From NCBI GenBank assembly GCA_015680685.1, contig MNCI01002465.1, forward strand, positions 113,268-177,267: a stretch of DNA of 64,000 nt, read 5' to 3'. The stretch comes from Gnetum montanum (Eukaryota; Plantae; Gnetophyta). This document shows, piece after piece, positions 326 to 31,684 of the stretch. How positions within the stretch are numbered: position 1 is the first letter of the stretch; each line of letters begins with the position of its first letter. Below the pieces are notes generated by a model. That model was given only the letters and a program-made list of their open reading frames with translations, searched no databases and was not told the origin of the DNA. A program made the position numbers and the translations under genes.

Positions 326-992
326 GCTAGTCAAGGAATCGGCTGCTTGTCGCAACGCATGAGTACGACTTGTTTACGAGCACTGGCTACTTGGTAATCT
401 AGTAGCGTATTCCAGGATTCTGCTCTTGGTAATCCCAGTGGTAGTCCAATGTATACGGCTAGTCAAGGAATCGGCTACTCATTGCTAGGCTAGAACGTGT
501 GATAAGTACGACTTAGTTACGAGCACCCACGGGTGTGTACGGCTAGCTAAGGAATCAGCTGCTTATCACACTTAGACTAAATAGGTGCCTCAGTATGACC
601 ACTTCGAGCACTTGCGTTACGTGTGGTGATCCCAGTAATGATTAGCGTTTGGTAAGCCACAGTTGCATAGTTCAGGGTGTGTCCGGTAAGTGGGAACAGA
701 TGCTGACGCTAGTTAATTTAGACTTAGGACATTAGTTAGAGTTAGTTAGTTTCTCAACCCTTTCCCCTGATAGCATATAAGATAAACCGAAAAACACCAA
801 AAAAAAATCACATACCTCAGACTTGCTTAACCATACACCGTGACACTTACAAGAAAGCCTGGGAAGACAACGAACGATTAACCCCAAGTGTTTCTTGTGG
901 TGTTAAGGCATTTAGTCTACGGAGTTCGACCGGATCGTGCGTGCATGCTCGTATTCGTATGGTTGAGTGTAGGGGTACCTCGCCACTCATCA
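326..992 (+). mobile_element. 3' portion of an Athila-like Ty3/gypsy LTR (element C), relatively young, with internally repeated modules
   Basis: Ends GTATGGTTGAGTGTAGGGGTACCTCGCCACTCATCA (992), matching the LTR ends of element A (16041-16077, 28420-28455). No PBS follows, so it is a 3' or solo LTR. It retains many CpGs, unlike its neighbours. Confidence 0.8.
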
Positions 993-1035: not shown

Positions 1036-1891
1036 AAAGTCAAAATTTCATCTATTGTGATATCGTATCTACAATATCATAGCAATGGTGTTGTAAACCA
1101 TGCTACATCATCATTGATATAATGTCTTAGGATGCATGTAGCGCTATAAATATTGACACTTGGATGCACAATCAACATCTCAAGTCTATGGAAAGTTCTT
1201 AAAGTTTGTTTTCTTAGTTAGCAAATGCTTGTAGTGTGATGTTTATTAGTTGAATGAAATCTTTATTCAAGTGAATTATACTTGGACGTAATTCATGATG
1301 ACATTAAAGATCAAAATTGCTTTTCGTCATTGTAGCATCCACTTAGTTCTATTTTTTTACTTAGCATAATTTTATTATTTTCTTAGCTTAATCATTTATA
1401 TTTTCCACGAACTTTATTTTACTTGCTAATTAGTAAAGTGGAATGAGTATGATTGTTTTTGAGCATTAAAGTGTAATCATTTGGTAATGCAGTAGCAGTT
1501 TCACTTGATTTTCTTAGTATTGACTTCACTTGGTAATCCTAATAATAGTTAGATACGTCCATGGCATGTCTGGTAAACCAGGAATGAATGCTCATTGCTA
1601 TAGGATAGAATATATTTACATTATTTTCATTAATTATAGTTAGTATTTAACTTCATTTTTGTTATGTTTACTCTTAGGAGTCAAATGAGCTATACATCAC
1701 TTAATATACGCCTTACTATGAGATAAACCATACACTTAGAATTCACTAACTCAAGGTGAGAAGACAATGGTCATGAGATTAACATCAATTACTAGCATAA
1801 TAACATTGTCCATCTTTAGATTATGATCTGGTCACTTGCAAACACTTGTGACTTGTATGGTAGAATGTTGGGATTGCTCTAGTACTCATCA
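1032..1891 (+). repeat. 5' LTR of element B
   Basis: Aligns by eye along its length with 30831-31684; TG...CA termini; TATA (CTATAAAT) at 1144. Confidence 0.9.
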
Positions 1892-2847
1892 TTGACACTG
1901 CTACTGCAGATGTATTAATGTGTGCTAAGTAATTGATCTTACAAAGTTCATTGATTAAGAACTGTAAAGTTAACATTCATATCTTTAAGTAATCCTAGTA
2001 ACACACACACTTCACCAAGCATCACATGTATACAATGGCTTCGACACTTAAGAAAAAACTATCACCTACTAAAGAGCTACAAAGGGATTATGATAGAATA
2101 AATGACAATGAAGACTGGAGTATGCTTATGCAAACAATAATCTCATATGCTAATAATGATTTGCCTATGGAAGCAACAATCTCATATGCTCATAATGATT
2201 CTTATTACCTCGATTTTACATTCATATTTTACCAAGATGGGTAGTTGAGGTGGAGAGACCTATAGGGAAACATTTTTTTTCCTTGAGAGTGTTCAACACT
2301 CACCTTGCTTCAAGTAGCTTTAAGAGGAATGAATCAGAGCCATGCGTAAGAAGGATACCATGTGACCAAACACATGACAAGACCCTATTAATCCATAGAA
2401 GCATAAGTGCTAAGAGGCCTTGCTATGGAAATAAAAAACAAGCATAACAAGAGGAATCATGTTAGTGATTGTGTTATCCTTGAAGAACTTGATGGTGATG
2501 CATTTGTAGTAGAGAAACTCCATCATGATCATGAATTCCATTTCCAAATGCCTATTATTTGTTTAGAAGAACTTGTCAAGGTGAAACTACATTCATCCCT
2601 CATAGAAACACCAAGAAAAAAGCAAAGAACTTTACGTACAAGTAGCACTCAAGGCCTAGAGTTTCTGCTGGGTCACAAGGAGATGAATACTAGAGTTAGA
2701 GAAGGAGAACTAGTCGGCATTCTTCTCCAATTTCTTTGTCTTCCTCCTTACAATTGTCCATGGACTCTAATAGAAGGGAAAAGAGGTATAAAAATCATGA
2801 CAAGGAGAGATGTTGGGCTCATAATAGATGTGATTATCATCCAAGAT

Positions 2848-5800
2848 TGTTGACCTTTTGGTATGTCAAATCCTTAAGAAAAATGAAGAACAATGATGCT
2901 TGTGTGATTATTGTGTTTATAAAATAAGAACATGGAGACCACAAGGAGAACCTAAGAAAGGTCATAAATAAAGAGATGTCAAAGTAAAGATCACAAGAAC
3001 CTTCCAGATAAGATTGAAGACTCAAGAGATGAGAGCTATAATGAGATGTCAAAGTGAGGTTTATAAGGACTTAAGAGAGAGCAAGGACAAAGATGAAGCC
3101 TACAACAAAATGAAAAAGTTCCCAAGATCAAGGATGAACCATATCAACAAAAGTAAGCCTCTAGAAGAAAAGCCCAATATCTGAGAAGACATTTATAGAA
3201 AGTAGAAGACATCTTGGTTGAGACATAGATGAAGTAGAGAAGATGTTTAGCAAAAATCATAGATGTCTACTATCCAGAGAAGACATCTACATGTAGAAAT
3301 CTCCTTTGTGAGATATATGTCTATGTAGAATGTAGGTCTAATGTAGAGCGATGTCCTAATCTCGAAGAAGATGTCTCTAGAGACCATTAGATAGCCATTG
3401 CATGAATTCTGAGGTGATTTTGAAATGTGCAAGTGTTGAATGTAAGCAAGTGTTAACATTACATAATCATTGTGCATATTATTTTATTGTATTTATGTGC
3501 TTCAATGTACTATCTTTTGTACTATTTTAAGAGATCAATTTTTTTGTTTCTCAAAGTGCAAGGAATAGTAAATTAGTTACATCCTTTCTATGTAATTCTT
3601 GTTTCTCTTTTGTCCCCTGCAGGGTTGATGTACTTCTTGCAAGAAGGCATTGTCCTTGAGCTTGGTGAGATCTTGCAGGATTAAGTGTTGGTGTAGTGCC
3701 ATAACACTCTAGAGTGGAGCTCAAGTTGTAAAGATTGTGGGATATTGGAAACCACATTCTAAGCTTATCAAGACCTTGTAGGGTTAATTGGATTTGTGGT
3801 TTTGAATAACTTTGGAGTAGAGCTTAGAGCTATACAGGGTGTGATACCCTTCAAATCATATTTTAATAGGAATAAAGTTTGAAGGTGTGCAAGTGATCTA
3901 CCATCCAAGTGTGGACTACCCATGTTGGGGAACCATGTTAAAATTGGTTGTGATATTTATGCCTTAAAATTTTCATTTGGGAAACTTTTTCACCCCTGCC
4001 TTTCTAAGTTCAATAATCCTCAAGTGGTATCAAAGCTTGGTACTCTTGCTACCAATTCTACATCATCTTCAAGACTGAACAATGGAGCAAGCCTTGTACA
4101 CAAAGCCACCCATGTTTGATGGATTTTACTTCACCTATTGGAAAGTGAGGATGTAGGGCTTCTTCAAATTTATGGAATTTGAAGTTTGGGAATCCTTTCT
4201 TGAAGGCTACACATCGCTTGTCGACAACACAACAAGAGCCATTGGGCCTTGTAACAAATGGAATCAAGAAGAAAAAGATAAGTTCATGTTTAATTCTAAA
4301 GGAAAAAATTATTTATATTATGCTTTGAATAAATTAGTATTGAATTGAGTAACAAGATGTAAAATGCACAAAGAAATTTGACAAACTTTAGAGGCTAATT
4401 ATGAAGGAATGTCTATAGTAAAGCAATCTAAATTGTTAGTTTTGCAAAGTGAGTATGATAAGCTCAAGATGAGAGAAGAAGAGAAAATAAAAGAATATTT
4501 TTCTAGAGAAAATGGTCTTGTTGTGGCCATTGGAGGGACTGGTAAAGATTTGTCAAAAAGCGATGTCATTATAAAAATGATTAGGATGCTACAACCATAA
4601 TTTAGCCCAAAGCTGACTATAATGGAAGAAATTAGAGATTTTTAACTTTGAAAGTTAAAGAACTTAAAAATACTCTCATTGCTTATGAAATGAATATCAT
4701 AAGCAAAGGAGCCATTCAAGAGAGGAAACTCATTGCCCTTAAGTCAGTCATTAGGAAAAAGGAACCTAATGAGCAAGATGTGAGTAGTGAGGAGGAGATA
4801 GCTCTTCTCTCTAGAGGGTTGTAAAGACTCATGGAAAAAAGGGACAAATGATTTAATCAACAAAGAGGTAAGGAAAGTAAAAATTTTTATAATGTAGATT
4901 TTTCCTTTATAGAATTTTGGGTATGTGATGGAAGAGGCCATTTGGCCTCCGAATGTCCTAATAATAATAGTAGATGGTAATGAAAGGATAGCAATGATGA
5001 GGAGTTGAAAAAGACCAACTTCTATACAAGTTGAGATGATGATGAGCAAAGTGAAGAAGAAGTTGACAACTCTATCAAAAATTCTCATCTTGTATGTATG
5101 GCTCTTACAAATGAAAACTCATAATATGTTGCTGAACCAAGTTGTAAGTATGATGAAAGGTATAGTGAATTACAAGAAGAAATTCTTGTTATGCATTACT
5201 TACTTAGAAAGGCAAAGAAATTCTTAAATACAAAGCTTAATATAATTCACATCAAATTAAAAGGAGAGATCTTAGACATAAAAGTTGAGATTCATTAGCT
5301 AACCCCCTTAATTAAGGGTTGCAGAAGCCTTCAAGAAAGAAAGACATGTGAGTAGCCTAAGAATGAAGATTTAGAGAAAGTCTCACAAGAAGATTCTTGC
5401 TGAAAGGAAAGCATAACTAGGTTTGATAACCTCATTAATAAGGAGAATACTTTACTTATTAGTAAAAATTGTGGTAGTAATCAAAATTTTGATTATTCTC
5501 ACGGTGATAAAAATAAGATTAATGCTTGGTCTTGTCCAAATGTTTATGGTAAGGATTTTTTGGAAATAGTAGTTGAAAATAAAAAGAAGTAGAGAATTGA
5601 AAATTTTCTCAAAGAGACAGATGATGGAATAGGTGATCAAAGATTCATTCATAAAGAACATGAAAAAATGGAATCATCATGAAAAAGATCTAATGAAAGA
5701 GAACGAACAGGTAAAGAGGTACTTCATGATAGAGGACCTCATCTCAAACTTCATTAATCTTCTTCCTTTCTATTGTAAACAAGGTAAGTTTCTATCTCCT

Positions 5801-8800
5801 TGCTAAATTTTATAAATCCAAAATTATTTTTGATATGGGCTTTCTTTATTTGTTGGATGCTAATCGTAGATTAGCACTTTTTAGAAATGATTTTGTAGGG
5901 TTTTGTTGAATTAATTGATTATGGTATTTTCTTTTGCATGGTGTAATTGGATTTATAAAAGTTTATGGTATGACACTTGTAATGAATTAATTGATTTCTT
6001 ATCTTGCTATTTAAAAGCATAAAACCCTTGCATGTATTTCTTAGCCTAAAAACCATTTGATGAACTATTATTTGTTTCAAAGCTTATTTCCTTTGGATTT
6101 TTTTTTTAAAATCATCTTTTGAATTCTTAGCTAGAATACTTGTTTTTAGTGACTAAAAAAACTCACATGAAATTCATGAACTAAAGGATTCATGTTGAAT
6201 CTTCATTATATATCTTATGAGAATGATTTTGTGTTTACAAAATTCAATCTCTTTTAGAATATGTTTTGGTGCCTTTGATGAACTTCATAAATCATCTGAG
6301 AAAAGGAGCTTTTCAGGAGAAATTATCATGTATGTATGATTTTTATGTCTATTTTCTTGTGATGACTTTTGAGGATTTCCATGTATTTTACCAAGTTTTG
6401 AGAGTGTTTTAGACTTGTTTTTACATATCTAATGGGAGACCTTAGTATCCATACTTGATCTTAGAATTTCTATACAACTTGGAGATCCTAAAAGACTCAA
6501 AAAAAGTATACCACTATCTCTGTAATAGATGCATTATGATCAAAGAAACTAGAAAGAATTACAATAGATGTTTCAAAAGATGGATCATATGTGCAGGGGG
6601 GAAATTAGTTTATGGGAAGTCTTGAATGATTTTATCAAAGACATGATATTATAATTACAAGCTCCCAGTCTATTGCACCTTTATGAATTTAATGTAGGTA
6701 AGAGCATATTCATTTGAATGTATATTTTTTGTACCTAAGGCCCTTCTTGCTATTATAAGTTGAGAAATAGTCAATGGTAAGTGCTCATGATCTCCTTTGC
6801 TAAGAAATGGTAAGGAATGAGTATATGTATATATATGTTGGTCTTAACATGATTGTCAATTTGTGAACTAGGGTTTTGGATAATAAGTTGTGTGGTTGTG
6901 TTTGATTCTTTGATATATTGAACTTGATTAATTGTGGTGTTTTTGTCTTAAAAGATGAATATGCATGTTTTTACTTTATAATGACTATTCCTTATCCATT
7001 TATTGTTGCCTTAAAAGAAGGTGTATTGGTGTGGTGAGCATGGAAATTTGTTAAAGTCCTATGATATGTTTGTTACTAATGGTTTATTGGTTTTGAAGGC
7101 AAGTTATAAGATCCTAAATGGCCAATCTTTGGACTTCTACAGTTGGTTTTTAATTCTCTTGAAAAGCTTGGTTATGCTTCATAAATAAAGGGTATCTCTT
7201 TATAGAAATCATTTTAATTCTAAGATTTCTGGATGTGATAGATATTTATTTGCTGTTGTTTGCTTAATTAAAAGAGATCATTGGTTGTCATATAAATGAG
7301 TGATCTTTTGATATAAGTAGATATCTTGCTTTTTCTTAAAAGTTCAATTTGCATGTTTTACTTGCCTTATGCTTTATCATTTTATTTGAAAAGGAGGAGA
7401 ACATTGGATAAAACTTGAGTATTGATCATGAATTTTTGACATTAAGACAAGTTCTATGATCTTCAATGATACATTTTCATCTCTTGATTTCAACTATAAG
7501 AATTGTACCTCATTATTTCTAACATTCTTATATGAACCACTAAGGGGTAGTAGTTATTTGGATTGATTCATCCTATTCTATCTATGCTTAGTAATGTGTA
7601 CTTTTTAATTTCTTATTCTTTCTTTCCAACCTATTTTACTTTTATTTTTTCTCTAGTTCATACACATTTCTTATGATCATTTGTAACTCCATCTTCACTG
7701 CTTTTTCATGATGTCCAAAAAAGAGGAGAGTTAGGTTGATCTGAAATTATTAAAATTGTATTATGATATGAGTGACCAATGTTATAAGTAGAATTGAGAA
7801 TATAAGCCTTAATGCTTTTTGGAAACTACTAACACAATTTCTTAAGTTTTGAACATCACCAAAAAGGGGAAGATTGTGGAACTTTTGGTATGTCAAAACC
7901 TTAAGAAAAAATGGAGAACAAGGATGTTTGTGTGATTTTTATGTTTATAGGACAAGAACATTGAGACCACAAGGAGAGCTTAAGAAATTTCATAAGCAAA
8001 GGGATGTCAAAGTAGAGATCACAAGAACTTGCCAGAAAAGTTTAAAGACTCAAGAGATGAGAGCTATAATGAGATGTCAAAGTAAAGTCTACAAGGACTT
8101 AAGAGGGAGCAAGGAAAAAGATGAAGCCTATAGAAAAATGAAGAAGTTTCCAAGATTAGGGATGAGTCATATCAATGAAAGGAAGCCTTGGAAAGAAAAG
8201 CCTAACATCTAAGAAGACATCTATAGGAAGCATAAGATATCTTGGTTGAGACACAGATGAAGTAAAGAAGATATCTAGCAAACATAGTAGATGTCTACTG
8301 TCTAGGTAAGACATCTACATGTAGACATCTCCTTTGTGAGAAAGACTTCTATACAGAATGTAGGTCTAATGTAGAGAGACATCCTAATCTTGAAGAAGAA
8401 GTCTTTAGTGATTGTTAGATAGTAGTTGTACAAATTCTAAGATGATTTTGGAAACATTAAGGCTATAAGAAGACTTCAACTCTCTTGGGAAATGTGCAAG
8501 TATTGAATGCAAGCAAGTGTTAACATCAAGCAATCATTGTGCATGTTATTCTATTGTATTTGTGTGCCTCATTGTATTATCTTTTGTACTATTGTAAGAG
8601 ATCAATTGTGTTATGTATTAAATTGCAAGTATTGGAAAATTAGTTGCATCCTTTCCTTGTAATTCTTATTTATTTTTTGTTCCCTACAAGGTTGATGTAC
8701 TTTTTATGAGAAGGTATCATCCTTAGGATCTTGCAGGATTGAGTGTTGTTATAGTGCCACAACACTTTAGAGTGAAGCTCAAGTTGTAAAGGTTGTGGGA

Positions 8801-9078
8801 TCCTAGAAACTACATTCTAAGCTTGTTAGGACCTTGTAGGGTTAAGTGGATTCATGAAATTCAATCACTTCAAAGTGGAGCTTAGAGCTATATATGATGT
8901 GGTACCCTTCAAACCACATTTTAAGAGGAATAAAGCTTAGAGGTGTACAAGCGATCTACCTTATGAGTGTGGAGGACCCAAGTTGGGGAACCATGTTAAA
9001 ATTGGTTGTGATCTTTGTGGCTGAAAATTTTAATTTGGGAAACTTATTCATCCCCCCTTCTAAGTTCAATGATCCTCA
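2848..9078 (+). mobile_element. Non-autonomous gag-only Ty1/copia element (D), Sirevirus/SIRE-like LTRs (TR-GAG-type organisation)
   Basis: LTRs 2848-4022 and 7875-9078. Perfect TSD AAGAT (2843-2847/9079-9083). Met PBS TGGTATCAAAGC 4025-4036. PPT AAAAAGGGGAAGAT 7861-7874. C-rich tract near the LTR 3' end. Copia gag relic present; no PR/INT/RT/RH seen in 5800-7870. Confidence 0.9.
4055..5790 (+). pseudogene. Degenerate copia gag (PPMFDG..F.YWK N-terminus, UBN2-like region, zinc knuckle) of element D
   Basis: KPPMFDGFYFTYWKVRM at ~4103-4153; VKQSKLLVLQSEYDKLKMREEEKIKEYFSR (ORF 4409-4600); CDGRGHLASECP at ~4924-4959. Many stops and frameshifts. Confidence 0.8.
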
Positions 9079-14641: not shown

Positions 14642-15192
14642 TCCAATTAACTCATTTATTTCCAGAAAATTTAATGAAAATTTAAAATTTTACATGGTGA
14701 CATCATAGCTACAATGTTGTAGTCCCTATGATGTTGCATCTACGATGTTGTGCATATAAAAATAGTATATATACATGAAGGAGTTAGTGAAATTTTTCTT
14801 TCCTCTCATTTGTATCAAGAGAAGTTTTTATGATTTTTCCTATGAGCTCTTACACACTAACTTCCCAAAGCCATAACTTCACCCCCATAGCTTTGATTCT
14901 CAAGATTCTTAAATCCTATTGATCTTAGAGCACTCAACTTAGTCATTGGGAGGTGGGGGATGGGGTCGATTGTGCACTACATTGACATTAAAAATTTGAG
15001 TGAAAATGTTTCTAACACTAGGAAGATAGTATAAGGGTAAGTATAAAAAAAATAAAGATATCATATGAACTGATCAATCTTAGGCCAAATAACTTATTGA
15101 ATTCTTCTAATGGAAAATTCTAATCATTTTTAGGCATCCTAAACAAAGAAATAACCATTGTGGAAGGTCATAGTGATTAGGGATATAACACT

Positions 15193-16077
15193 TGATGAAG
15201 AGTCTTCAGTCGACTGTGTCAATGAGATGCTATCAACATGACCCCATTGACAAGATTCCATGGATGTAGGGTTTTCCACATTGATGTGTACCCGTTGACA
15301 TGGTACCCTAGTGGGTCTATAAATATGACATCCTAGCTGTGTTAATGGGGAGTTAGAATTTTAGTTGGTAGTAGAATTTCTGTAATTTGTTTTTGTAAGA
15401 GATAGAATAATTTTCTAAGTGCTCATAGTAGGAGTCAAGGAATGTATAGATGTTTATTTGAGCACTATTGTACTTGAGCACCACAGTGTATGTGGCAATA
15501 AAGGCAAGCTTTTTGATAAACCTTGTAGCACTTGGACAAGCTTAATGATTTATTTATGAATTTATTATTTTTCATTAATTTAGTAATTAATTAAGCTAAG
15601 ATGATTAAGATTTTAGGTAATTAATTAAGCTAAATAGACTACCATACATAAGTATGACCACTTCAAGCATACATATAACACTTGGTAATCCTAGTAGCAC
15701 TTAATGGTTGGTCACCTAGTAGTGTTATATGTGTTTAGGATGCGTATAGAAAGTGGGATCAGATGCTTATGTTAGGATAGTTATTAATTAGTAATTAAAT
15801 TAGTTAAACTAGTTAATTAATTTATTCTCAATCTATTACCAACCTTAGGGGATCAAAATATAAAATAAGAAAAATCATGTGTCTCAATTACACTTAACCA
15901 TACAACTAAGCCTCATAAGTGTAGTTGGGAAAACAACAATCATTTCAAGATTAGATTCACCTTCTAGATTGAATCCTATGTATGAGAATAGTATGAATCC
16001 ATGGAATTTTACTAGATCACATGTGAAAACCTTAGTGATTTGTATGGTTGGGTGTAGGGGTACCTCATTTCTCATTA
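15193..16077 (+). repeat. 5' LTR of element A
   Basis: Aligns with 27567-28455; CTATAAAT at ~15317. Confidence 0.9.
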
Positions 16078-16236
16078 TTGGTGCTGTTGCTAGGGATTCT
16101 TAGCTAATACCATGTGTTATCAATCTAGGATTAGTGAAAATTACTCAACATCATTGAAATGAACCCAAAAAAGTTAAATCATCACAATTAATCAAAACTA
16201 TACTACAGGCATACTGAGAAATCATTTTTAACAAAA

Positions 16237-19200
16237 ATGTCTTCTTCTTCTCATAAGAGAGATGATTCTATGTCAACAATACCACAAGAATGCAAAGGAA
16301 TATACACTCATCTTGATGAGTTTGTACCTAATTTCACTTACATCCTCAAATAGGATGAACACATGTAGTGGTGAGACATGGAGGGGAATGTTGTATTACC
16401 ACTTGATTAATCTATTCCATAGATGTTGCTTAAAACTCTTATAATGTTGGGTATTGAGGAGCTTCATGAAGAGTATGTTGTAGAAGATCATGACTTTTAG
16501 GACTACCATCCCATTGAGACACAACACAAATGAGATCGGCAATAGAAAAAGTGCCACAAAGCCATGAAGGGAAAATGGTTCACTAATTCCTTATTCTTGG
16601 TATATCAAAAGGATGATGAGAAACCTCTTTCTAAGGGTTCTTAACATAAAGAATCTCCACCTTTTGACTCTGGTGAAGGATAGTTGAATCCAAACGCTAA
16701 ATTAGGAATCAACAATATGGGTTCTAGTAATAATGAGTTCCATGATTATGATAGCTCTAAGAAAGGGAGTCGAAGAAAGAACTTGGACAAGCACAGTGAT
16801 GATAACTCTAAGGATTGTGGAAATGAAAAATAGAGAGGTAGTGGTAGATACCATGGTGGTGGTAGTGCTTCTCTCTCTTCACCCACTTCATTTAGATCAA
16901 CTTCCTCCTCTAAATTTGAAAAGAACTATAGGTGGCAAGATAACAATGATAATCATAGAGAGCACTATGAATGAAGGGATGATAGAGGACATCATAGGCA
17001 TCATTAAGAGCATGATGATGAACCTCTACTGGCCACTCAAAATATGCCTAACATCACTAAGGCTATTAAAATTCGTACCAGGCATGTGAAAGATAGTCGA
17101 ATTAAGCAGCTAGACATGAATAATATCCCCAAATTTGAGGTGGATATAACTTAGGTCCTTAAATGCATCTGAAAGCCTTTCATAATGCTTGTGCCTTATA
17201 AAATATTGAAAATTATTGACAAAAGCTCAAGCCATTCCCTAGAAAACTCATTAAGGAAGCTAAAAGTTGCTACTAGTCTCTAGAACTAGAGTCAATTCAT
17301 TAATGGAGTATAATGTTATAACTATTTAATGACAAGTATTAGAAATGGTTCAAAGTGTCAAACCTGCGAAGGAAAATCTAGGGATGGAAGCAGGAAATAC
17401 ATGAAATCTTGGATGCCACCATGGATAGATATTATTCATTATTACACCAATGCCCTAGCCATGGTTACTCTCAAAGGGAACAAATTTTTCACATAATAGA
17501 TGGGATTTGCTTAGAAACAAGAAGGATTCTTGGGGTCTATGCCCAAGGAATACTATCAAAATTAAGAGTTCATCAGATACAAAGGTTGATTAAATAGGTA
17601 GTAGAAAAAAGGGAGAATTGAGGAAATGCAAAAGTGTAGAAGAATATAACATGGATCCTTCCATTAGAAATAAGGAGGACTACTTTTGTGACAGTGAGGA
17701 GGAATCACCTCTTGATGAGGTAGTGCAAGGAAAGACCTTACTAATCCAAAAATATATATTTGAAATTTCAAATAAGATAGATAAAATGTGGGATTCATTG
17801 AATGAAAAATTCCAAACTACTCTAAAAATCATAGAGGAATCAAGAGAGTAAGGTAGTGATCATGACCATAGGAAGCATAAAGAAGCTAAACATGCCTACC
17901 AAAGGGATAAGGGCAAAGTTGCTGAAGTAGAAGAAGTTGTGGAGATTGAATTAGATAATGATGGTGGATGTGACATTTGCCATTATGAACATCCTAAGGG
18001 ATGTTTTCCTATTGTGTCATACTTATAGGAATCTAGGGTGTATGCTTTGAATCCATGACTAAAAAAAGGGCAAACACCCAGAAGATTACCTTATCCTCAA
18101 GGAAATTCCAGGTAGTTCCACTAGCAAAAACCTTATTAACCAAGTGGAACTCCATCACAACCATATAAGCAGTATCAATAGTGTCATCAACCAAAGTTGT
18201 GGGGGATGCTACCACCATGATAGCAGCACCCTTACATGTAGCCAGATCTATATGGGTATTATGTTTGGCAACCTCTGTTTCCACATGACTCTTCTAGTTA
18301 CATTTCTCATTTCTAGCATCACTACCACCCTCTTGAATATCACCAAACTCATTCTCCAAATCATAGGGAAGATTCCATATTCCATCCATACCCTTCTCAT
18401 GTGACTACACCTGTTCCTCCACCCTCAGCACAACTATTGCCTGCTCCATCCATACAGGGTGAGCTTCCATCTCAACTACAACAATGTAATACTACAAGGA
18501 TCATTAATCTACATCCTATTAATCAACTGAGTGGTTCAAATCCTACATCTCACTAACAACCATTCTTCTGACCTAATAGCTCTCCTAAGCCCTCAAAAAC
18601 TCATGCAGCTGGCCATCCCACTCCTTCCTCATCCTCTACAAATCATAAAATCAAGAGCCCTTCAAACCAAATTCCTTTCAAGATCCACACTATTATGTTA
18701 ACTCATGATGTATCTAACTAGATCTAGATTGGAAACCTTCCCAAGAAATTAGCCAATCCTGGAAGTCCTCTTATCTATTTGTAGATTTCTACGAATGAAT
18801 CATGCAAAGCTCTTCTGGATTTAGGTTCTTGTGTTAATTTGATTTCCCATGAGATTTATATTACCTAGAACCTACTACTTCTCAAGAAGAGAAATATCAT
18901 ATTATAATTGACAAATGAGTCCATCACTGTTCTATTAGGACTAGTAGAAGATATTGTGACCACGATCTATGGGTGATCTTCTTCTCCCGATTTCCTAGTA
19001 ATCAAAGTTAAGAACTACAAGGGGGATTTTCCAATCATTATGGGAAGGGCATTACTAAGTACTATTGATGCAAGAATGGACATAAAATATCTTTCCCTAG
19101 AAATTTCTAAGGAAAATGTATTTAGAAATATTAAGAAGAAATGAGTTCCATGCATCGCGTATAGTGGTACAAGGTGCAATTGCATGTAGCAACTTTTGTT

Positions 19201-22200
19201 TGTGAAAAGAACATCTATTTTTGCATGTAGGAAATGTGAAAATAAGGTAGATCTTCAAAGGTACCTATACATACTAGTCACAAAACAAGAGGACACCTAG
19301 TGGTTGACAGTTGATTCTGAGAGTATCACAATTTACATGGAATTGACTAAGAGCCTCACATGCACCTATGTCGTAGGCATGGATGAACTAGAGCAAGTTC
19401 ATTACCAACTCTCTAATGATAAAAGTATTGATACCTATTAGGAAGAGTTGGAAATTCCTAAAAATGTTAAACAAGAATCCCTAGAGTTGAAAACTTTGGC
19501 TATTGCCTTGGAATATGCATTTCTAAAAAATGGAAAGTTGGTTATAATCAATGCTAAACGTGCTCCTGAACAAAAAGAGATATTGTTGAAAGTGATTAAT
19601 AAATGGCTAATGGTATTTTCTTAGCCATATCTTGAACTCACTAGGATTTATCCACGAATATGCTAGCATTATATCTATATTGATCTGTCAATGAAGCTAA
19701 GAAGGCAACCACAGTGGTAGTTGAACCCCAAATTAAAAAAAATTGTTAAGGAGGAGATAGAACAACTCCTCAAGATGGGGTTCATCTATACTATTATAGA
19801 TAGTGAGTGGATCAACCCACTCATGATTATGCCAAAGAAAGATGGCAAGTGGTAGGTTTGTATTGATTTTAGGTTATTTTACATAGCAACATTCAAAGAC
19901 CATTTTCCATTGTCATTTGGTAATCAAGTGTTGGACACCATTTCTGGACATTGCTATTATAGCTTTCTGGATGGTTATAGTGGCTATAACCAAATTCAGA
20001 TTGCACCAAAGGATTAGGCAAAAAATACATTCACAAGTCCTTGGGGGACTTTTGCATATTAGAAGATGGCTTTTGGTCTATGAAATTTTCCTTCCAAATT
20101 CCAACACTTGGTCTTGAACATCTTTTAGTAGCAAATTGGTAGTGGGATGGAAGTCTTCATGGATGACTTTTCCACTTATGGTGCTACATTCAAGAAAGCC
20201 TTGAATTACCTTGAGCAAGTATAAGAAAGATGCATGGAGACAAACCTATGGTTCAATTAGCAAAAGAGCCATCTAATGGTCCATGAGGGCATAGCCTTGG
20301 GGCATAGAATCTTACAAGTAGGGATCAAGATAGACCTTGAAAAGATAAGGGTCATCCAAGGAATAACCCATCAATTGAAAATAATTAAAGATGTCTAATC
20401 ATTCCTTGGGCACACTAGTTACTACCAACAATTCATAAAGAATTTCTCTAAGATTACAAAAATGTTGGTCGAGCTAACAAAGAAAGATGTTCCATTTGTT
20501 TGGCCTAAGAAATGTGAAAATGCATTCCAACAATTGAAGGAGAGACTCATAGAAACTCTAATTCTGTGAGCATAGACTAGTTTAGGCCGTTTCATATCAT
20601 GACGGATGCATCAAATTATGCCTTGGGAGCAGTGTTGACACATATGGATGATCAAAAATGTCCATATTACATCCATTATACAAGCTGAAGCATTGTAGGT
20701 GCATAGATCATTTACATCACAATAGAGAAAGAACTGATTATAATGGTGTATGCTTTGAAACATTTTAAGCACTATGTTCTTGGGTACAAAGTGTTTGTAC
20801 ACACTAATCATAGTTCCATTTTCTTCTTGATGAATAAGCTAATGGTGAGCCCCCGACTCATATGATGGTTGCTGATTTTATAGGAATTCAATATTACAAT
20901 GGTAGATCAAAAAGAGACTAAGAATGTGGTCATTGACCATCTCGCTTGGTTAAGATGGAATAACAAAGAGGAGGAGAGCCTACTCTTTGATTAATTTTCT
21001 GATGAACTCCTCTTTACTAAAGTAATTAATGACCAAGTGCCCATAGAACCAAAATGGTATGATGGCATCCTCACTGACCTTCTTACTCTAGATGTGTCAT
21101 AATATCTAGACCATAGGAATAAATAATATTTTCTTCATCAAGCCAAGTGTTTAATGGAAATCAATAGACACCTTTATAGGGTGTGCGTCAATGGCTTGGT
21201 TTGTTGGTGTGTCCCTGATATTGATCAACTGTGCATTTTCCAAGATGCTCATGAGGGCCCTTGTAGAGGCTACTATGCCAAAAGACATACAACCATTAAA
21301 ATCCTAATGGAATGGTATTATTGGCCAACAATCTTTAGGGATGCCCACTAATTTATTTTATCTTTTGAATGTTGTCCAAGAGATGGTGGGATGACTGCAT
21401 GAATGGAGGAACCTCAATAGTTGATCCAACCATTAGAATCCTTTGACATATTGGGCATAGACTTCATGGGTTCCATCACACCCATGTCCAATGAAAAGGC
21501 ATATATTATCATTGCCATTGACTACTGTACTACATGAGTAGAAGTAGCAACTATCATTCACTATACATCATTCATTACTACTCAATTTTTTCAACAACAT
21601 ATTGTAAACAGGTTTGGGATGCCACATGTACTAATTTTTACAATAGAACCCATTTCATAGGCATCACTTTTCATAAGGTCATGTAATGATTGGAGGTTAA
21701 ACATATATTAACAACACCTTACCACCCCCAAGCCAATGATCAAGAAAAGGTCACTAACAAGGAGATTATAAAAATCTTAATAAGAATTATTAGCAAATAT
21801 AGGATAGATTGGAGCATAAAACTCAATGATGTCCTCTGGGCCTACTACTCAATATGGAAACTCCCTATAGGCTACTCTCCTTATGAGCTAGTGTACTGGA
21901 ATCTACTAACACTTTTTATTCAATTCATACTTTGTACACTTTCAACAGCCTATGACCTAGATCTTGACCTAAGTCTAGTATGAAAAGAACACTTGATCAA
22001 CCTTAACATGCTAGATAAAAACTGATTAGTGGCCTTATCCTTGAATGAAGTGCATATGACATTCAGTAAGGAATGATATGACCTAAAAATAAGAAAATTC
22101 AAATTTCAACCTGGAGATAAGGTCCTCTACTAGAACCCCACACATGTTTCACAATGAAAAAAATTTCAAACATTGTGGGAGGGGCCTTATATAATTGATG

Positions 22201-22310
22201 AAACTTTTCCTTCTAAGGCCATGTTAATTTACAAACTTAAGAGCCCAAGAAAAAAATAGTTGATTAACATTCAACAAATAAAACCTTTCCATGAGCTCAA
22301 GCAAGCTAGT
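16237..22310 (+). pseudogene. Degenerate gag-PR-RT-RNaseH-INT of element A
   Basis: Protease KALLDLGSCVNLI ~18807-18845; RT PKKDGKW*VCIDFR, KDHFPLSF, SFLDGYSGYNQIQIAP, EVFMDDFS (~20150-20172); integrase HEGPCRGYY, TTPYHPQANDQEKVTNKEI (ORF 21690-21983). Gypsy domain order. Confidence 0.92.
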
Positions 22311-24367: not shown

Positions 24368-27330
24368 ATGGTCCAACCTTAGCCTAAGTGTAACTAACTA
24401 ACAAGATGAGGTATCAAAACATTATAAGTTACACATTATATATACTAATCCTTGGATGTGTTATGACCACAGATGGAACCAAAGGAGAAGCATGCATAGG
24501 AGGGATGACCGTCACAACCACAAGACAAATGATCACAAATAAGAAGGGGCCAAGAATAGGCCTAAGAAGAACAAGCAATAAATTATGCTACAAAACCTCT
24601 TAGGGAGGAGCCAAAAGTGGAATCTGTCCATCTGATTCTAGAATAAGCAATAGTGACAAAGCAATCCCACCGAGATGGGGCATCAGCCCCATAAGAAAAC
24701 CTTAAGGTGACCTTGAGAAAAGCCTGTATTAAGTAGATCAAATCAAATGAGGTTTAGGAAATGGTGCTCCAAGAATTGAATTTTGGCTTTTTCTTGGAGT
24801 GAGCACCTTAAGAAGTACAAGATCAACTGAAGACCTCTCCCATGTGGTCCATCATTACTTCCAATAGGGAGTGGTACATGGGAGAGACATTCTTATTCTA
24901 GAATAATAGGTAGGTCAGTTCAATAGTCAAGATTAAGGAAATTTCAGTGTCCTACTCGATGCAGACCATTTAAGAGGCACTTGGGTTACTAGAAATTAGG
25001 GTGAATCTCACTAAGATTACAATATAGGTAGACCCCAGCATCAAGAAAGAATTCTTGCAACGATGTTATGATGTCAACTGTAAGGAGTATGGTGCACTTA
25101 CACTGATGGAGAGAATCTACTATAAGATTACAACCTTTCACCTCAATCCAATAGTTAGGCCAAGTAGGATCACTACCTTCTCCACCTATTTGTGTATTGC
25201 TCTAAGCAATAGATTTCCTATCAACCTTCCACAGCTAATATATCTTGAGATACAAAATCACTTCAAGGAGAATGAACGTGGAAGGAAGGCATTTGCCTTT
25301 CCATGCCTCATCAAAAAACTAGGTTGGAGGGGAGGGATAATCCACTATAAAAATGATGATTTCCAATGTGCTCCATTTGCTAATTGGATAGAGATGATGA
25401 AGGATAAAGTCCCTACAAAATTCATCTAAGAAGAGGAGTAGCAACCACCACCCCCAGCACCCACTTAGCAAATAGTTCCAAATATGATTGTAACTTCTCA
25501 ATGATTTCATGAATTCTAAGAATGGCTCTTGAGTGAGCAAGAGTAACAAGTAGGAATAAGTGGTGGCAAACCATCTATGTACCAGCCAATGATGAGTTAC
25601 TTGAATGAAGTGGCTTGAATAGTTAGCCAAATGGAGGGAGGTGGACTAATCTTTTCAACAAAGAAATGTAGTTGCCTACAAGATTGAATTCTAGCATCTA
25701 AGAGGTAATAGTATCTCTCTTGCAATAGTAGTAATTTCCAAAAATCTCTAGGAATACTACTACTTTTTTAGTACATTTGGAAGAGGATGAGGGAGCAACA
25801 ATTTTCATGATGCAGCACCTAGGGTAGGAGACAATAGTGGAGATGGTTGCTAATAGAATTGTTGAAACTCTAAATGAACCTTTGGTGTCTATACCAAAGG
25901 TCTTTGCACTTAAATATGTGCAAATATTTGTAGGGATAGGAAGTGAGAAGTTGAGTGTACCAAAACATGAACAATTTTTGGACCGACTATTGGTAACAGG
26001 GTAACCGATTCTAAATATTTTCAACCTTCTAGATAACATAACTATAACCTAGTTAGAACTACTAGAAGCAAGGGGTAAGAACATCAATTTTGAGGGGCAC
26101 CTTGATGTAGCCAAAGTGCTAAATGAACACTTGGTTGTAGAGGTTGTTGAACTAAGAGCCTATATTGCTGACCTTGCATTTCTCAACCTAGCATTGACAA
26201 AGGATAAAGCTCTTGAACAACTTCACACAAGATTGAAAGGGGTTGAGGGTGTGATGGAGATGGTGGTATTTTATCAATCCTTGGCAAAGGTCACTTAGCA
26301 TAAAATTTAGAAGACCTTGGATCAGACTTGCCAAGAGAATGTAGAATTGACCATAGAGAATCATCACCTATGAAATGTTAATGCAAAAAAGTAATAAATG
26401 GAAGATTTCATCGATCAACAATAGGAGTAGCCAGCCATAGTGAACACTGAGCTAAGGAGATTGGTAGCAGAAAACAAAAGCCTCTTCATTGAGGAGGTCC
26501 GTGCTCTCTGCCAAAAAATTACAATCAAAGTAGCCGCTTGGAAATTAGAGGCTCTCAAATTTGAGAGAGTCAAAAATCACTACAAAGAGCAAGTTAGTCT
26601 ACATAAAGAAGTTAATGAAAAGCACATCTAGTTGGTGAAGGCAAAAGTAAATGTGATTCACCAAAAAGGAAGAGAGATATGGCAACCTATCATTAATGGG
26701 ATAGATTCCTACAACAAAGTAGAGATCCACATGAAGGATTTGTAGATTGAAAACATGATAGAATACATGAAGCTCACCAATCTCTGATATGAAAATCTAG
26801 CTATGTTAACTATTGAATGGTAGTAGTTTGAATTGGAGAAATAAATGGCTAGCTCATACTTATTGTACAAGGTAGAGTTCAAGCTCTAGAAGGATACCAA
26901 GTAGAATCTTGCAGTGGAAAATGTGGAACTTGAGATTCTCAAGGTAAAGTTCATTGATCAAAGATCAACTACAAAGAACTTGTCCAAAAGGATGAATGAC
27001 TACCATGAGTGTAGAATGCACTTAGAGTGTTCAAAATCAAATGCAAGAAATTCACTACTTGGTAGGTTAATGTTAAGGAGTTATTCCTAGTAATGCCCTG
27101 TCCATGGGATATCCCCATTCTTGCCCACATTGATGATGCCACATAGATTGTGAATGATCTCTGGAGGAAGGAGGAGAAGATGAAGGCATTTTTGGATGCC
27201 TTTCACCTTCCATTAGAAGTGGTAGTTACAATAATATAGTAATAACCACCTTAACAACCATGTGCACCCTAAGCAGGGGAAGGTCCTTCGAAACCTCAAG
27301 AATCTCCATCAACTAGGACCATCTGATCTT
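24368..27330 (+). pseudogene. Additional sense ORF (env-like position) of element A, with a long charged, putatively coiled-coil C-terminus
   Basis: ORF pieces 25055-25429 (PINLPQLIYLEIQ...FAFPCLIKKL), 26116-26298 and 26440-26631. Homologous to 28606-30655 of element B (LEIQ..F.E...G....FPCLI.KL; PCPW). Confidence 0.7.
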
Positions 27331-27566
27331 TTCAACAATCTTCATGCCATCAGAGAATCTATTTTCCAATTTTATTCAATCATTTTCTGATGTTCAATTT
27401 CATTTCATGAACACCACAATTTTGTAATCAATGTTGATCTATACACCTAGGCACTTAGTTTTGTTTTGTTATGTTAGTTTTTTTGTGTCATGTGTTGGTC
27501 AATAATCCCATACCTACTTAATTTTGTAAGGAACTAGAGGACAACTATCATTTAGTCATGGGGGTA

Positions 27567-28455
27567 TGATGAAGATTTTTTGGTCAACTATGTTAATAAG
27601 ATGCTATTTATGTGACCCCATCGAGGGGATCCCATTGACGTAAGGTTTCTCACGTTGACGTGTACCCATCGACATGGCACCCTAGTAGGTCTATAAATAC
27701 AACACCCCAGCCATGTTAATGGGGAATTAGAATTTTAGTTGCTAGTAGAAATCTTGTAGTTTGTTTCCATAAGAGATATAATAATTTTCTAAGTGCCCAT
27801 AGCAAGAGTCAAGGAGTGTATGAATCTTTATTTGAGAACTATTGTACCTAAGCACTGCAGTGTGTGTGGTAATAAAGATAAGCTTTGTAATAAACCTTGA
27901 AGCACTTGGACTAGCTTAATGATTTATTTATGTATTTATTATTTTTCATTAATTAAGTGATTAATTAAGCTAATATGATTAAGAATTTAAGTAATTAATT
28001 AAGCTAAATAGACTAGCATACATAAGTACAACCACTTCGAGCATATGTATAACATTTGGTAATCCTAGTAACGCTTAACACTTGGTCACCCAATAGTGTT
28101 GTACATGTTTAGGATGTGTATGGAAAGTGGGACTAGATGCTTATGTTAGGATAGTTAGTTGTTAGTTAGAAATTAAATTAGTTAAACTAGTAAATTAATT
28201 TATTCTCAATCTATTACCAACCTTAGGTGATCAAAATATGAAATAATAAAAATCATGTGTCTCAATTACCCTTAACCATATAATTGAGCCTCACAAGTGT
28301 AGTTGGAGAAACAATAATCATTCCATGATTAGATTTACATTCTACATTGAATCGTATTCATGAGAACACTAGGAATCCATGGAATTCAACTAGATCATTT
28401 GTAAATCGCTTAATGGTTTGTATAGCTGGGTGTAGGGGTGCCTTGTTGCTCATCA
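27567..28455 (+). repeat. 3' LTR of element A
   Basis: Follows the PPT; aligns with 15193-16077. Confidence 0.9.
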
Positions 28456-28605: not shown

Positions 28606-30655
28606 ATGGTTCCAAAGAGACCAATAGTTGAAGGAACTTTCCAAAATGGAAGCAAGAGACCAAGAGGCCATGGGAGAGACCAAGTGGAAGAATGAACTCC
28701 CCAAGTAGAACATTTAGAGTAGGAGGCCTAATCATACAACATCCATTAACAAACTCCTACCATCAAGCACTTAGCCCAAGGAGAGGTAGAATTCTACTAG
28801 GACTTAAACAAGGACAATGCCTCACACTATCTCTAGAATGCCTCTAGGCCATACAAGAAAAATCCATCATGTCCATGGTCATTGCTGAACTAAACTTTGG
28901 TTCTTTCATGGATTTTGCTATAGAACTAGTGAATATGCAACTCCAAGCATCTCTTTTATGGCCTACATTATCCAAAAATGGTGAATGATATATAAGAAAA
29001 ACCTACCAATTTTGACAAAACAAATAGGTCAATGCAATAGTGAAAATTGAAGGAGTCTTTGTGCCATACTCAGTAGAGGAAATCGTAAAGGTCTTTAACA
29101 TTCCAAATGAAGGAGCAAATGTGACACATATTTCAATAATATTAGACACTAATGCTAAGAGGCTATGGTTGCAAAGGGTATATGGAAAAGAAGACAGACT
29201 ATAGTGAGCTTATAGATGAAGAAAAAATATACTTCAAGATTAGAACCTATCACCTATTTCCAAAAAAATGGCTTAATAGGATATCCACATATGTGGTAAG
29301 AGAAAGTGCAATCCTAATGAGAAAATTTAATGCTAACATCACCCATCTATTCTTTCTTGAGATCCAAAGATAGTTTGAAGAGAAGAAGGTAGGAAAACTA
29401 ATGCTTCCATTTCCTTGCCTTATTAGGAAGTTGTGCCACAAAGGGAAAGTTGGTCATGGTAGAAACTGGAGTTGAACATGCAAAAAATGAAGTGCAGTGA
29501 CTACAAGCAGGGTTGATGAATTTGAAAGATGAAAATAAAGACCTTATGTATTTCATAGTGCTCGATCAACTAGAACAATTCAAAATTGATTATGTGATAC
29601 AATTTAGTATCCACAATATGTAGATGGAAAGGGAGAAGGAGAAGGTAGTGTGGGATGCATCTGTGGTAGAAGCACAAATGTATGTACATGCCCAAGCACT
29701 CATAACCTTATAGGAGGAGAAAAAACAATTACCTATTGAAAATACTTGGTTGAAAAACATAGAAAAGTAGAAAAATATTCTTGAAGAGAGCATCCAATAG
29801 CTCAAAGAACAAATTGTCTAAGTCAACTAAGACATGAGTTACTTGACCAGAGAAAACTAAAACCTATCAATAGAAGAAGTTCATGCTATTTCTCAGAAAT
29901 TAGTGCATGGTAGGATGAGGCCAAGAAACATGAGTGGATCAAACAACATTTTAGTGGCTAGGTTGGCATGTACAAAAAGATAAATGAAAAAGAAATCTAG
30001 ATGGTGAAGGCCAGAATTAATTCCCTCTTTGCTTAAAATTCAGATTGGCAACCCATCTTGGATAGCCTTGCCCATGTCCACTAGGCCAAAGTGAAAACAA
30101 AGACTTGCACATAGAGGACCTTACAAAATACATGGGGTTAGTGAATCTCTGATACCATAACTTAGCAATGTTAATAGCTATCAAGCTAAGAAATGAGCTA
30201 AAGCAATAGGTAGTGGCAATTTATGCTATGTATGAAAAAGAGTTTATTGATAGAAAGGATGCATTACAAAAGTTACATGTGTCAAACTTTGAACTAGAAA
30301 TTGCCAAAGCCAACTACCACAGGCAAAAAGATGTAGCAACAAACCTGGTACATCACATGTCAAATTATCAAGAACTTAGAAAGACAACTAGAGCATTTGA
30401 AGAGGAGAGATGATAATTTGTAGCCTGGTACATAAAAGATAACAAAATGTTTCTGCAACTTCCATGTCCATGGAATGTACCTACTACATCCAAAATTACA
30501 TAATAAGTGTGGATTATAGATTACCTGAGGCTAGAAGAGAAGAAACTATAGGTGCTCTTAAATAGATATCAATTTCATAAGCTCGATGACAAGGGTAGGA
30601 AGCCAATGGAAAAACTCCATAGCCTAGAACATGAACTACATCATGCTACTTTAAA
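28606..30655 (+). pseudogene. Additional sense ORF (env-like position) of element B
   Basis: ORF pieces 29152-29373 and 30213-30413; shares motifs with A's ORF at 24368-27330. Confidence 0.7.
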
Positions 30656-30830
30656 TTTTATTTTTTTGTCATGTAACTATGTCATTTTTTAAAACCACTA
30701 TTGTGGCCTTCTAAGTCATGTAAATAGTTAGTAAGTCATATCAAGTCCAATCTACCTCCTAATTTTGTAAAGGTTTTCATCATCAATTTGTTTTAACTTA
30801 AGTATGAGTTTCCAGTTCGTCATGGGGGTA

Positions 30831-31684
30831 TCATAAAGTTAAATTTTCATTTGTTGAAATAGTAATGATGTCATAACCCATGCTATGTCATCATTGATAC
30901 TATGTCTTGAGATGCATGCACTCCTATAAATATTGACATTTGAATGCATGATCAACAATTTTTTATTCTAAGTATTAGGAAAATTCTTGTAGTTTATTTT
31001 CGTAGTTAGTGATAGAGTGAATGCCCATAGAGATGTTTAGTAGTTGAATGAAATATTTATTTGAGTGAATTGTACTTAGATGCAATTCATGATGGTAATA
31101 AAGATTAAGATTTCTTTCCATCATTGCAACATCGACTTAGTTCTTTGTTTACTTAGCATAATTTCTTTGTTTTCTTTACTTAATCATTTATATTTTCCAA
31201 GCACTTTATTTTACGTTTGAGTTAGTAAACTAGAACGAGTACGATTGGTTTTGAGAATTAAAGTGTAATCATTTGGTAATGCAGTAGTGGTTTCACTTGA
31301 TTCGCCTAGTAGTGAATTCACTTGGTAATCCTAGTAACGATTACATGAGTCCAAGGCATGTTTAGTAAACTAGTAACCAATGCTCATCACTATAGGCTAG
31401 AATACATTTACATTATTATTATTACTTAGACTTAGCATTTAACTTCATTTCTATTATGTTTATGGTTAGGAGTAAAATGAGCTATACAACATCACTTAAC
31501 ATATGCCTCACTGCGAGTTGAGCCATACATAGACTTTACTAACTGAAGGTGAGAAAACAATGATCATGAGCTTAACATCAACTACTAGCATAATAACATT
31601 ATCCATCCATGGATTACAATATGGATTCTTGTGAAAACTTGTGACTTATATGGTAGAGTGTTGGAATTGCTCCACTGCTCATCA
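30831..31684 (+). repeat. 3' LTR of element B
   Basis: Follows the PPT; aligns with 1032-1891. Confidence 0.9.

What the first reader, a model, noticed from the sequence alone, without database searches (positions are those of the whole stretch)
326..706. Covarying multi-helix structural module shared by the LTRs of three Athila-like families and multiplied in LTR C
Seen in sequence: the layout P1-(C/T)GA-P2-CGA-P3[insert]-P3'-GTMCGGY-P2'-GAAYNR-P1' recurs with different stem sequences that still pair. C copy 1 (359-482): ATGAGTA/TACTCAT, CTTGTTTA/TAGTCAAG. C copy 2 (497-571): GTGTGATAAGTA/TGCTTATCACAC, CTTAGTTA/TAGCTAAG, GCACC/GGTGT. C copy 3 (590-706): TCAGTAT/ATGCTGA, CCACTT/AAGTGG, GCACTT/GGGTGT. 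A fourth copy's 3' half emerges from the N gap at 326. LTR A (15647-15771 and 28021-28146): CATAAGTAT/ATGCTTATG, CCACTT/AAGTGG and a 12-bp ACATATAACACT/AGTGTTATATGT stem. LTR B (1442-1596 and ~31234-31388): AATGAGTAT/ATGCTCATT, TTG(G)TTT/AAACCAG. The variable insert usually carries one or two TGGTAATCCYAG motifs. Loops are conserved while stems are replaced, and the rest of these LTRs barely aligns. Inference: a selected RNA fold downstream of the LTR TATA box, which could be a packaging/dimerisation signal, a TAR-like protein-binding site, a translation element or an unclassified ribozyme. I do not recognise it as a described family.
Basis: partly seen in the sequence, partly recalled or inferred. 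Interest (0 to 1): 0.85.

Follow-up and report, generated by a model that had tools for sequence, protein, structure and literature searches.

The report
Twin-loop RNA module in Athila LTRs
Three related families of a plant jumping gene carry, in the same part of their terminal repeats, a motif whose stems change in matched pairs while two look-alike loops stay the same, and it likely folds in the element's RNA as an uncatalogued docking site for the element's own packaging protein rather than as a ribozyme.

Summary
Seven full copies and one half copy of a three-stem, two-internal-loop motif lie on the sense strand of Athila-type LTRs A, B and C. They sit about 300 nt after the TATA box (A, B) and about 300 nt before the LTR end. 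A post hoc descriptor finds 6 of 7 copies against 0.007 hits per shuffled window. 91% of stem cells pair. Public reads of family C add 11 short third-stem variants, all paired, including compensatory swaps. New points: the two internal loops resemble each other, the apical part is exchangeable (a tetraloop or two hairpin motifs), and the module lies downstream of a conserved AATAAA, so probably in U5. There is no Rfam match, no known ribozyme core and no sign of cleavage in RNA reads. An efficiently self-cutting tandem array could not be copied through RNA. Best reading (about 40%): a Gag-docking packaging or dimerisation element. A Rev/Rex-like response element is next (about 20%). Limits: only about four independent stem types, many swaps are transitions that methylation decay can mimic, and function is untested.

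The parts
326..352 (+). C0: 3' half of a module emerging from the N gap (58-325)
   Evidence: sequence
359..482 (+). C1: long module (P1 7 bp, P2 8 bp with one mismatch, P3, two TGGTAAT hairpin motifs at 392 and 427)
497..571 (+). C2: minimal module (P1 12 bp, P2 8 bp, P3 5 bp, 4-nt loop); folding z -4.05, pair probabilities 0.96 or more
590..706 (+). C3: long module, same P2 as family A; motifs at 624 and 650
326..992 (+). 3' part of LTR C (ends TCATCA at 992). No PBS follows in this copy; family reads continue into the Athila PBS
820..970 (+). predicted terminal U5 domain of LTR C, closed by a long-range stem whose arms are also present in A and partly in B
   Evidence: no covariation seen
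1037..1891 (+). 5' LTR of element B (start approximate); TATA 1144, ATTAAA 1303, decayed PBS-like stretch after 1891
1442..1596 (+). B1 module
15193..16077 (+). 5' LTR of element A; TATA 15317, AATAAA 15497; PBS-like stretch from 16079; 5-bp target duplication with 1 mismatch (15188-15192 / 28456-28460)
15646..15772 (+). A1 module with a 12-bp P3 extension
17235..17504 (+). decayed gag remnant of A (PF03732, E 1.7e-4, below the curated cut-off)
19724..20530 (+). decayed reverse transcriptase of A, 43-55% identical to the 120 listed PF00078 proteins; named hits mostly from flowering plants
24923..25321 (+). decayed extra ORF of A between pol and the 3' LTR (PF20167, E 8e-7, below the cut-off)
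27567..28455 (+). 3' LTR of element A
28020..28147 (+). A2 module
29200..29445 (+). decayed extra ORF assigned to B by position (PF20167, E 1.5e-3, below the cut-off)
30828..31684 (+). 3' LTR of element B (start approximate); TATA 30924, AATAAA 31097
31234..31388 (+). B2 module (most decayed; missed by the descriptor, found by the model that was trained on it)

Best explanation
The module is a covarying three-stem motif with two look-alike internal loops in Athila-type LTRs, predicted to fold in the 5' leader (likely U5) of the element's genomic RNA and likely to dock the element's Gag protein for packaging and dimerisation. Shown: the layout, the covariation, the fixed position, the Athila context and the tandem copies in family C. 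Inferred: transcription starts near the TATA box and the 3' end forms about 25-30 nt after the conserved AATAAA, so the module is carried once, at the 5' end of the RNA. Each loop (CGA opposite G-W-N-(U)-CGG-N) likely forms a 2-bp CG/CG mini-helix flanked by bulges, exposing purines for a protein. The apical cap is exchangeable. Family C multiplied the unit, which would add binding sites and help it compete for Gag.
For: Covariation and loop conservation. All 14 CGA strands of the 7 copies are CGA or one CpG-decay step from it (sequence). Read joints of family C give 16 displayed short-P3 rows (7 of 8 rows; 9 of 12 shown, 56 not shown). These are 11 distinct variants, all pairing at five positions, with two-sided changes at stem positions 3, 4 and 5 once window copy C2 is included. 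Conserved G-U pairs (P1 in 6 of 7, first pair of P3 in 6-7 of 7) favour the sense RNA. Position is fixed: 298-329 nt after TATA and 137-149 nt after the poly(A)-like signal in A and B, and about 285-310 nt before the LTR end in A, B and C3. The module is absent from the window's other LTR families, two of which show a Met-type PBS, and from one more distant element (L127). Retroviral nucleocapsid binding to exposed guanines in asymmetric loops is established knowledge, recalled.
Against: No binding, probing or mutant data. TSS and poly(A) site are not mapped. Retroviral packaging cores mostly lie 3' of the PBS (recalled). Folding z-scores are strong only for C2 (-4.05); the other six are -0.4 to -1.8 on +, and A1 folds better on the minus strand (-3.36 vs -1.82). 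With flanks, P1/P2 dominate the ensemble in only 3 of 6 copies tested. Many two-sided changes are G-C/A-U transitions that methylation decay could mimic. The apical loop varies (GACG, UACG, GAAA and others), so GACG-type kissing is not required. RNA reads map about equally in both directions in the oligo-dT run, so sense transcription of the module is not shown.
Confidence: 0.4

Rival explanations
1. A Rev/Rex-like response element: the twin loops would bind the protein of the extra ORF that these elements carry after pol, which would export or stabilise the unspliced RNA.
For: Both A and B keep a decayed PF20167-like extra ORF; B's begins with a basic stretch. The worm LTR element Cer1 needs its own protein CERV for genomic RNA export (abstract of PMC10309623). 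Export of plant LTR-element RNA has not been studied directly (passage of PMC12786077). Short CG helices between bulges resemble arginine-rich-peptide sites (recalled; one search did not confirm the wording).
Against: No evidence that PF20167 proteins bind RNA. The review passages read describe these sense ORFs as env-like, with unclear role (PMC7264820). Whether family C encodes such a protein is unknown.
Confidence: 0.2
2. A translation element: the module would help ribosomes reach gag across a long leader (IRES-like or shunt-like).
For: In A about 1.8 kb with 56 ATG triplets separates the promoter region from the gag remnant (decay inflates the count). The optional apical hairpins resemble modular leader domains.
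Against: The module is more than 1.3 kb upstream of gag. Splicing could remove the problem. Tandem multiplication is not expected of an IRES core. One search listed no such element for Athila.
Confidence: 0.12
3. A 3'-end control element: a host protein bound about 140 nt downstream of the AATAAA would suppress cleavage at the 5' LTR or promote it at the 3' LTR.
For: Constant spacing from the poly(A)-like signal in A and B (137-149 nt).
Against: Identical LTRs need an asymmetric cue that a module present in both cannot give alone. One search listed no poly(A) site.
Confidence: 0.1
4. An unclassified self-cleaving ribozyme, as in retrozyme LTRs.
For: Conserved loops with replaceable stems. Very small internal-loop ribozymes exist (PMC11620745, passages). 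LTR hammerheads exist in plant retrozymes (PMC11722881, passages).
Against: No Rfam match over the module even at E up to 10. No hammerhead or hairpin core, no conserved CA in the long loop strand, no conserved loop for a pseudoknot. No place with many RNA ends. Two adapter-like loose ends in one run fall at non-equivalent places. Cleavage in both LTRs would drop the inner copies of an array from the template, yet the array is widespread.
Confidence: 0.07
5. A DNA-level feature (factor-binding repeats or single-stranded DNA hairpins in reverse transcription), or pairing partly produced by mutation bias.
For: CpG-rich repeated palindromic boxes occur in Sirevirus LTRs (PMC2829016, passages). 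Transitions dominate LTR divergence (97 vs 37 and 88 vs 58). CpG observed/expected is 0.89 in LTR C vs 0.22 in the window.
Against: Sirevirus boxes lie upstream of the TATA box. Whole P2 stems are replaced: C3/A arms pair 6 of 6 with their own partners, and their 5' arm pairs only 1-3 of 6 Watson-Crick with others' 3' arms. P1 position 5 takes C-G, G-C and A-U. G-U pairs are conserved on one strand.
Confidence: 0.06

Closest known systems
Retroviral packaging/dimerisation stem-loops (gammaretroviral GACG hairpins; Ty1 5' domain)
   Same: Structured 5'-proximal RNA of an LTR element in repeated units. GACG is one of the caps on the short variants (GACG role from passages of PMC516450).
   Different: Lies inside the LTR, upstream of the PBS. 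The apical loop is not conserved; the conserved part is a pair of internal loops. No palindromic kissing loop.
LTR-borne response elements (HTLV Rex response element, HIV TAR; CERV-dependent export in Cer1)
   Same: Structured RNA downstream of the LTR promoter, in an element with an extra ORF of unknown role.
   Different: No cognate protein shown. It lies past the putative poly(A) signal. It is tandemly multiplied. No sequence match was tested; the Rex and TAR details are recalled.
Retrozymes (plant LTR elements with type III hammerheads)
   Same: Conserved RNA motif in both LTRs of a plant Ty3-type element while surrounding sequence diverges.
   Different: No hammerhead core, Asp/Asn-type rather than Met PBS, coding elements of about 13 kb, no sign of cleavage or circles.
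Twister-sister-like (lantern) ribozymes
   Same: Stems joined by conserved internal loops.
   Different: Their loop strands are 5 and 6 nt with a conserved CA at the cut (PMC11620745 passages). Here they are 3 and 7-8 nt with no conserved CA.
Sirevirus repeated motifs (CGG-CCG palindromes)
   Same: CpG-rich motif multiplied in a plant LTR.
   Different: Copia lineage, upstream of TATA, sequence palindromes read as DNA boxes. Here the motif is downstream of TATA with covarying stems.

Membership tests
Athila LTR retrotransposons (host elements) | PBS TGGCGCCGTTGCC after the 5' LTR | tested here: met
   decayed form after A1; intact in loose ends of family C reads at 992 (395 reads in X24); definition from passages of 10.64898/2026.03.20.713144; B's is heavily decayed
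Athila LTR retrotransposons (host elements) | RT placed in the Athila clade by phylogeny | tested here: inconclusive
   43-55% identity to plant PF00078 proteins, none labelled Athila; no tree built; RT motifs recognised as Athila-type from recall
Athila LTR retrotransposons (host elements) | extra sense ORF between pol and the 3' LTR | tested here: met
   PF20167 remnants in A and B, below the curated cut-off
Any Rfam 15 family | score at the gathering threshold | tested here: not met
   0 hits in the window; 3 weak hits at E 1-10 in 326-1900, none on a module
Hammerhead ribozyme / retrozyme | CUGANGA and GAAA core at a three-way junction | tested here: not met
   0 of 7 copies, either strand, with 60-nt flanks (motif recalled)
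Hairpin ribozyme | loop B strands and loop A on separate docking arms | tested here: not met
   GAAACA in 0 of 7; one stray match to the other strand near A2; the two loops are coaxial; motifs recalled
Twister ribozyme | two pseudoknots from terminal loop L4 | tested here: not met
   the minimal copy and the read variants have only a variable tetraloop; feature from PMC6154101 passages; no Rfam hit
Twister-sister-like ribozyme | 5x6 internal loop with conserved CA | tested here: not met
   loops are 3x7-8 with no conserved CA
Self-cleaving ribozyme of any class | site-specific cleavage in vitro | not testable with these tools
   fragmented RNA reads listed no common end, which is weak
Kink-turn | tandem G-A pairs with a 3-nt bulge on the strand carrying C-stem, bulge, GA | tested here: not met
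   GA faces GA next to P2 but the extra bases lie on the other strand (sequence; definition recalled)
Gammaretroviral GACG kissing hairpins | conserved GACG tetraloop | tested here: not met
   GACG in 3 of 11 distinct read variants; GAAA has the highest depth among the rows shown; long copies have no tetraloop there
Retroviral-type packaging signal | specific Gag binding and RNA encapsidation | not testable with these tools
   needs binding or packaging assays

The most novel reading that the evidence does not exclude
The twin-loop module is the RNA half of a Rev/Rex-like system in plants. The protein of Athila's extra ORF binds it in the LTR leader to export or protect the genomic RNA, and families tune their output by multiplying the module. 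This would give the first function for that ORF and the first element-encoded RNA export switch in a plant retrotransposon.
Probability: 0.18. Interest if true: 0.85.

Novelty: new variant of a known kind. Interest (0 to 1): 0.58.

Why it matters
Athila elements are widespread across plants, yet the passages read here describe no direct study of how plant LTR-element RNA is exported and no direct evidence on how packaging substrates are made beyond BARE (PMC12786077). A 75-nt minimal copy (497-571) that is predicted to fold cleanly gives a ready substrate for probing and binding tests. A module that is conserved across families, has an exchangeable cap and changes in copy number is a handle on how related elements compete for shared proteins. 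It could also help to recognise solo LTRs of this lineage.

Tried and rejected
No whole genome is held, so copies could not be harvested. Pattern scans for more copies: viral contigs gave 0, 1, 5 and 0 loci; metagenome contigs gave 0 and 120 (the scan stopped after 23 of 64 parts). None of the 125 matches of the 3' pattern had a 5' half with a pairing P2, and the descriptor found none in 127 loci. RT-based locus searches: none in viral contigs; one plant-like contaminant locus in a prokaryote assembly (L127), an intact element with another PBS and 41% RT identity, without a model hit. Plasmid records gave nothing relevant. No listed RNA run holds the window itself, which says nothing about expression. 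Adapter-like loose ends before 481 (137 reads) and 663 (68 reads) appear in the displayed rows for one run only (324 rows not shown). I rejected them as cleavage sites because they are not equivalent places in the module and the reference there matches the end of the adapter (adapter identity recalled), which points to mispriming. The joint from 482 back to 359 is explained by tandem copies, not circles. One cross-pairing table had two arms offset by one base and was redone. Earlier-findings look-ups by sequence and by place were empty. Nine literature searches listed no paper describing this motif. The library lacks most subscription papers, and no supplements were read.

Full report
Observation. 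The layout is P1, loop 1, P2, loop 2, P3 and a variable cap. There are seven full copies (C1-C3, A1, A2, B1, B2) and a 3' half at 326-352. A descriptor allowing CpG decay found 6 of 7 copies, all on the + strand, against a mean of 0.007 hits in 150 shuffled windows (written post hoc). A covariance model trained on the seven found them at 56-125 bits and nothing else above 14.1 bits. On the alignment, 91.3% of 127 cells pair and 7 of 20 pairs change on both sides; 0 of 500 shuffles reached the covariation score. The tool warns that related sequences and a structure drawn from them inflate these controls. RNAalifold gave the same helices, with P3 slid by two bases and a two-pair CG/CG helix inside each loop.

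How independent is the covariation? C3 and family A share P2, and LTR pairs are copies, so about four stem types remain. Own arms pair 6-8 positions. The C3/A 5' arm gives only 1-3 Watson-Crick pairs with the other families' 3' arms, but C1, C2 and B cross-pair fairly well, as they differ largely by transitions. Transitions dominate decay here, so G-C to A-U swaps are weak evidence. Stronger are the replaced P2 and P1 position 5, which takes C-G, G-C and A-U. Extra evidence came from public reads of family C. Joints in RNA reads (7 of 8 rows) and DNA contigs (9 of the 12 rows shown, 56 hidden) replace the long cap by a five-pair stem and a tetraloop. All 16 rows (11 distinct variants) pair at all five positions when read against the window's flanks, with two-sided changes at positions 3, 4 and 5 once window copy C2 is included. 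Caps include GACG, UACG and GAAA. At several places where the window's copies depart from the pattern, most family reads carry the pattern's letter. Against: folding z-scores are strong only for C2, A1 folds better on the minus strand, and P1/P2 dominate the ensemble in 3 of 6 copies tested. Old, decayed copies would be expected to fold poorly (A1/A2 85% and B1/B2 80% identical).

Anatomy not noted before. The two internal loops resemble each other: CGA opposite GAA(U)CGG(C/A) in loop 1 and GU(A/C)CGGN in loop 2. All 14 CGA strands are CGA or one CpG-decay step away. Each of the six long copies has exactly two TGGTNAY-type motifs in its cap (12 in 881 bases against 16 in 127,464 outside); these show no covariation, so their hairpin is only predicted. 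A TAGGMTA-like word follows P1 closely in 5 of 7 copies by the search (A2's was cut by the boundary). Joints that skip or repeat whole units suggest that module number varies within family C, though mapping among similar copies can mimic this.

Context. Element A is full length (15193-28455) with a near-perfect target duplication, a decayed Asp/Asn-type PBS, and gag, RT and extra-ORF remnants. B spans about 1037-31684 with A and a Met-primed element nested inside. C is a lone LTR end here, but its family's reads run into TGGCGCCGTTGCC, the Athila junction described in 10.64898/2026.03.20.713144 (passages). 46,687-68,994 contigs per run mapped to 326-1000 in four DNA runs with four organism labels from two studies, so the family is abundant; depth is not copy number. 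The module lies 298-329 nt after the TATA box and 137-149 nt after an A(A/T)TAAA conserved in A and B, and about 285-310 nt before the LTR end. That suggests U5, an inference, since the RNA ends are unmapped (PMC3601003, passages, treats AATAAA as the LTR poly(A) signal in other lineages and does not mention Athila). The window's other LTR families lack the module, as does one distant intact element (L127). RNA runs gave 279-1,838 reads on 326-1950 per roughly 13 million records, in both directions in the oligo-dT run, so sense transcription is not shown.

Mechanism. A motif whose stems are free but whose twin asymmetric loops are fixed, whose cap is optional, and which is multiplied in tandem behaves like a protein docking unit. 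I put Gag-mediated packaging or dimerisation first (0.40): the position would mark the 5' end of the genomic RNA, extra copies would add nucleation sites, and related families need a conserved reader. A Rev/Rex-like element for the extra-ORF protein is second (0.20), with Cer1 CERV as precedent (PMC10309623, abstract) and plant export unstudied (PMC12786077, passages); PMC7264820 (passages) leaves the role of such ORFs open. Translation (0.12), 3'-end control (0.10), ribozyme (0.07) and DNA-level or mutational origin (0.06) follow. The ribozyme reading fails every family test: no Rfam match, no hammerhead or hairpin core, no twister pseudoknot loop (PMC6154101, passages), no twister-sister-like loop (PMC11620745, passages), and no common RNA end. 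Logic also argues against it: cutting in both LTRs would remove inner array copies from the template, unlike single-ribozyme retrozymes (PMC11722881, passages). A slow or regulated cut is not excluded.

Comparison and novelty. It works like the structured 5' elements of retroviruses and Ty1, but is not a member of any named family. GACG caps recall gammaretroviral hairpins (PMC516450, passages) but are not conserved. Sirevirus repeated motifs are a precedent for multiplied LTR motifs but lie upstream of TATA (PMC2829016, passages). Nine searches (listings only) showed no description of this motif; the library is incomplete and I read no supplements. Collection scans found no copy outside this host group, but those collections hold little plant DNA, so the range is unknown. 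Verdict: a real, apparently uncatalogued structured RNA module of Athila-type LTRs, a new variant of a known kind, function untested; interest 0.58.

Noticed in passing
window 820-970, 15885-16060, 28263-28440: A second predicted long-range stem (arms around CCATACA and TGTATGG) closes a domain just before the LTR end in C and A, with both arms partly kept in B. The arms are conserved in sequence, so there is no covariation; folding z -0.8 to -2.0.
   Followed up: partly
L127 5511-5547 and 17629-17665: An intact element with another PBS has, about 200 nt after its TATA box, a half look-alike (AGTACGA, short stem, GA, TGCT) whose loop differs between its two LTRs. Chance about 0.9% per LTR with a relaxed post hoc pattern; no second loop and no model hit.
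   Followed up: partly
L127 (contig CAVWCQ010000010.1): A young plant-like LTR retrotransposon (LTRs 91-99% identical, 2,444-aa open frame) sits in a 79-kb contig of a bacterial MAG, probably a mis-binned eukaryotic contig.
   Followed up: partly
window 1247-1272 and 15430-15462: A hairpin-like block upstream of the poly(A)-like signal is shared by LTRs A and B.
   Followed up: no
window 2843-9079, 37127-38253, 59852-61061, 41453-47658: Other LTR families without the module; a Met-type PBS follows 4023 and 41857.
   Followed up: partly
window 326-992: LTR C keeps CpG (observed/expected 0.89 vs 0.22 for the window), so it is younger or less decayed than A and B.
   Followed up: no
NZ_CP087956.1 (hit H1): A 5.3-kb record filed as a Wolbachia plasmid encodes a Ty3-type RT and RNase H, possibly a host retrotransposon circle.
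   Followed up: no
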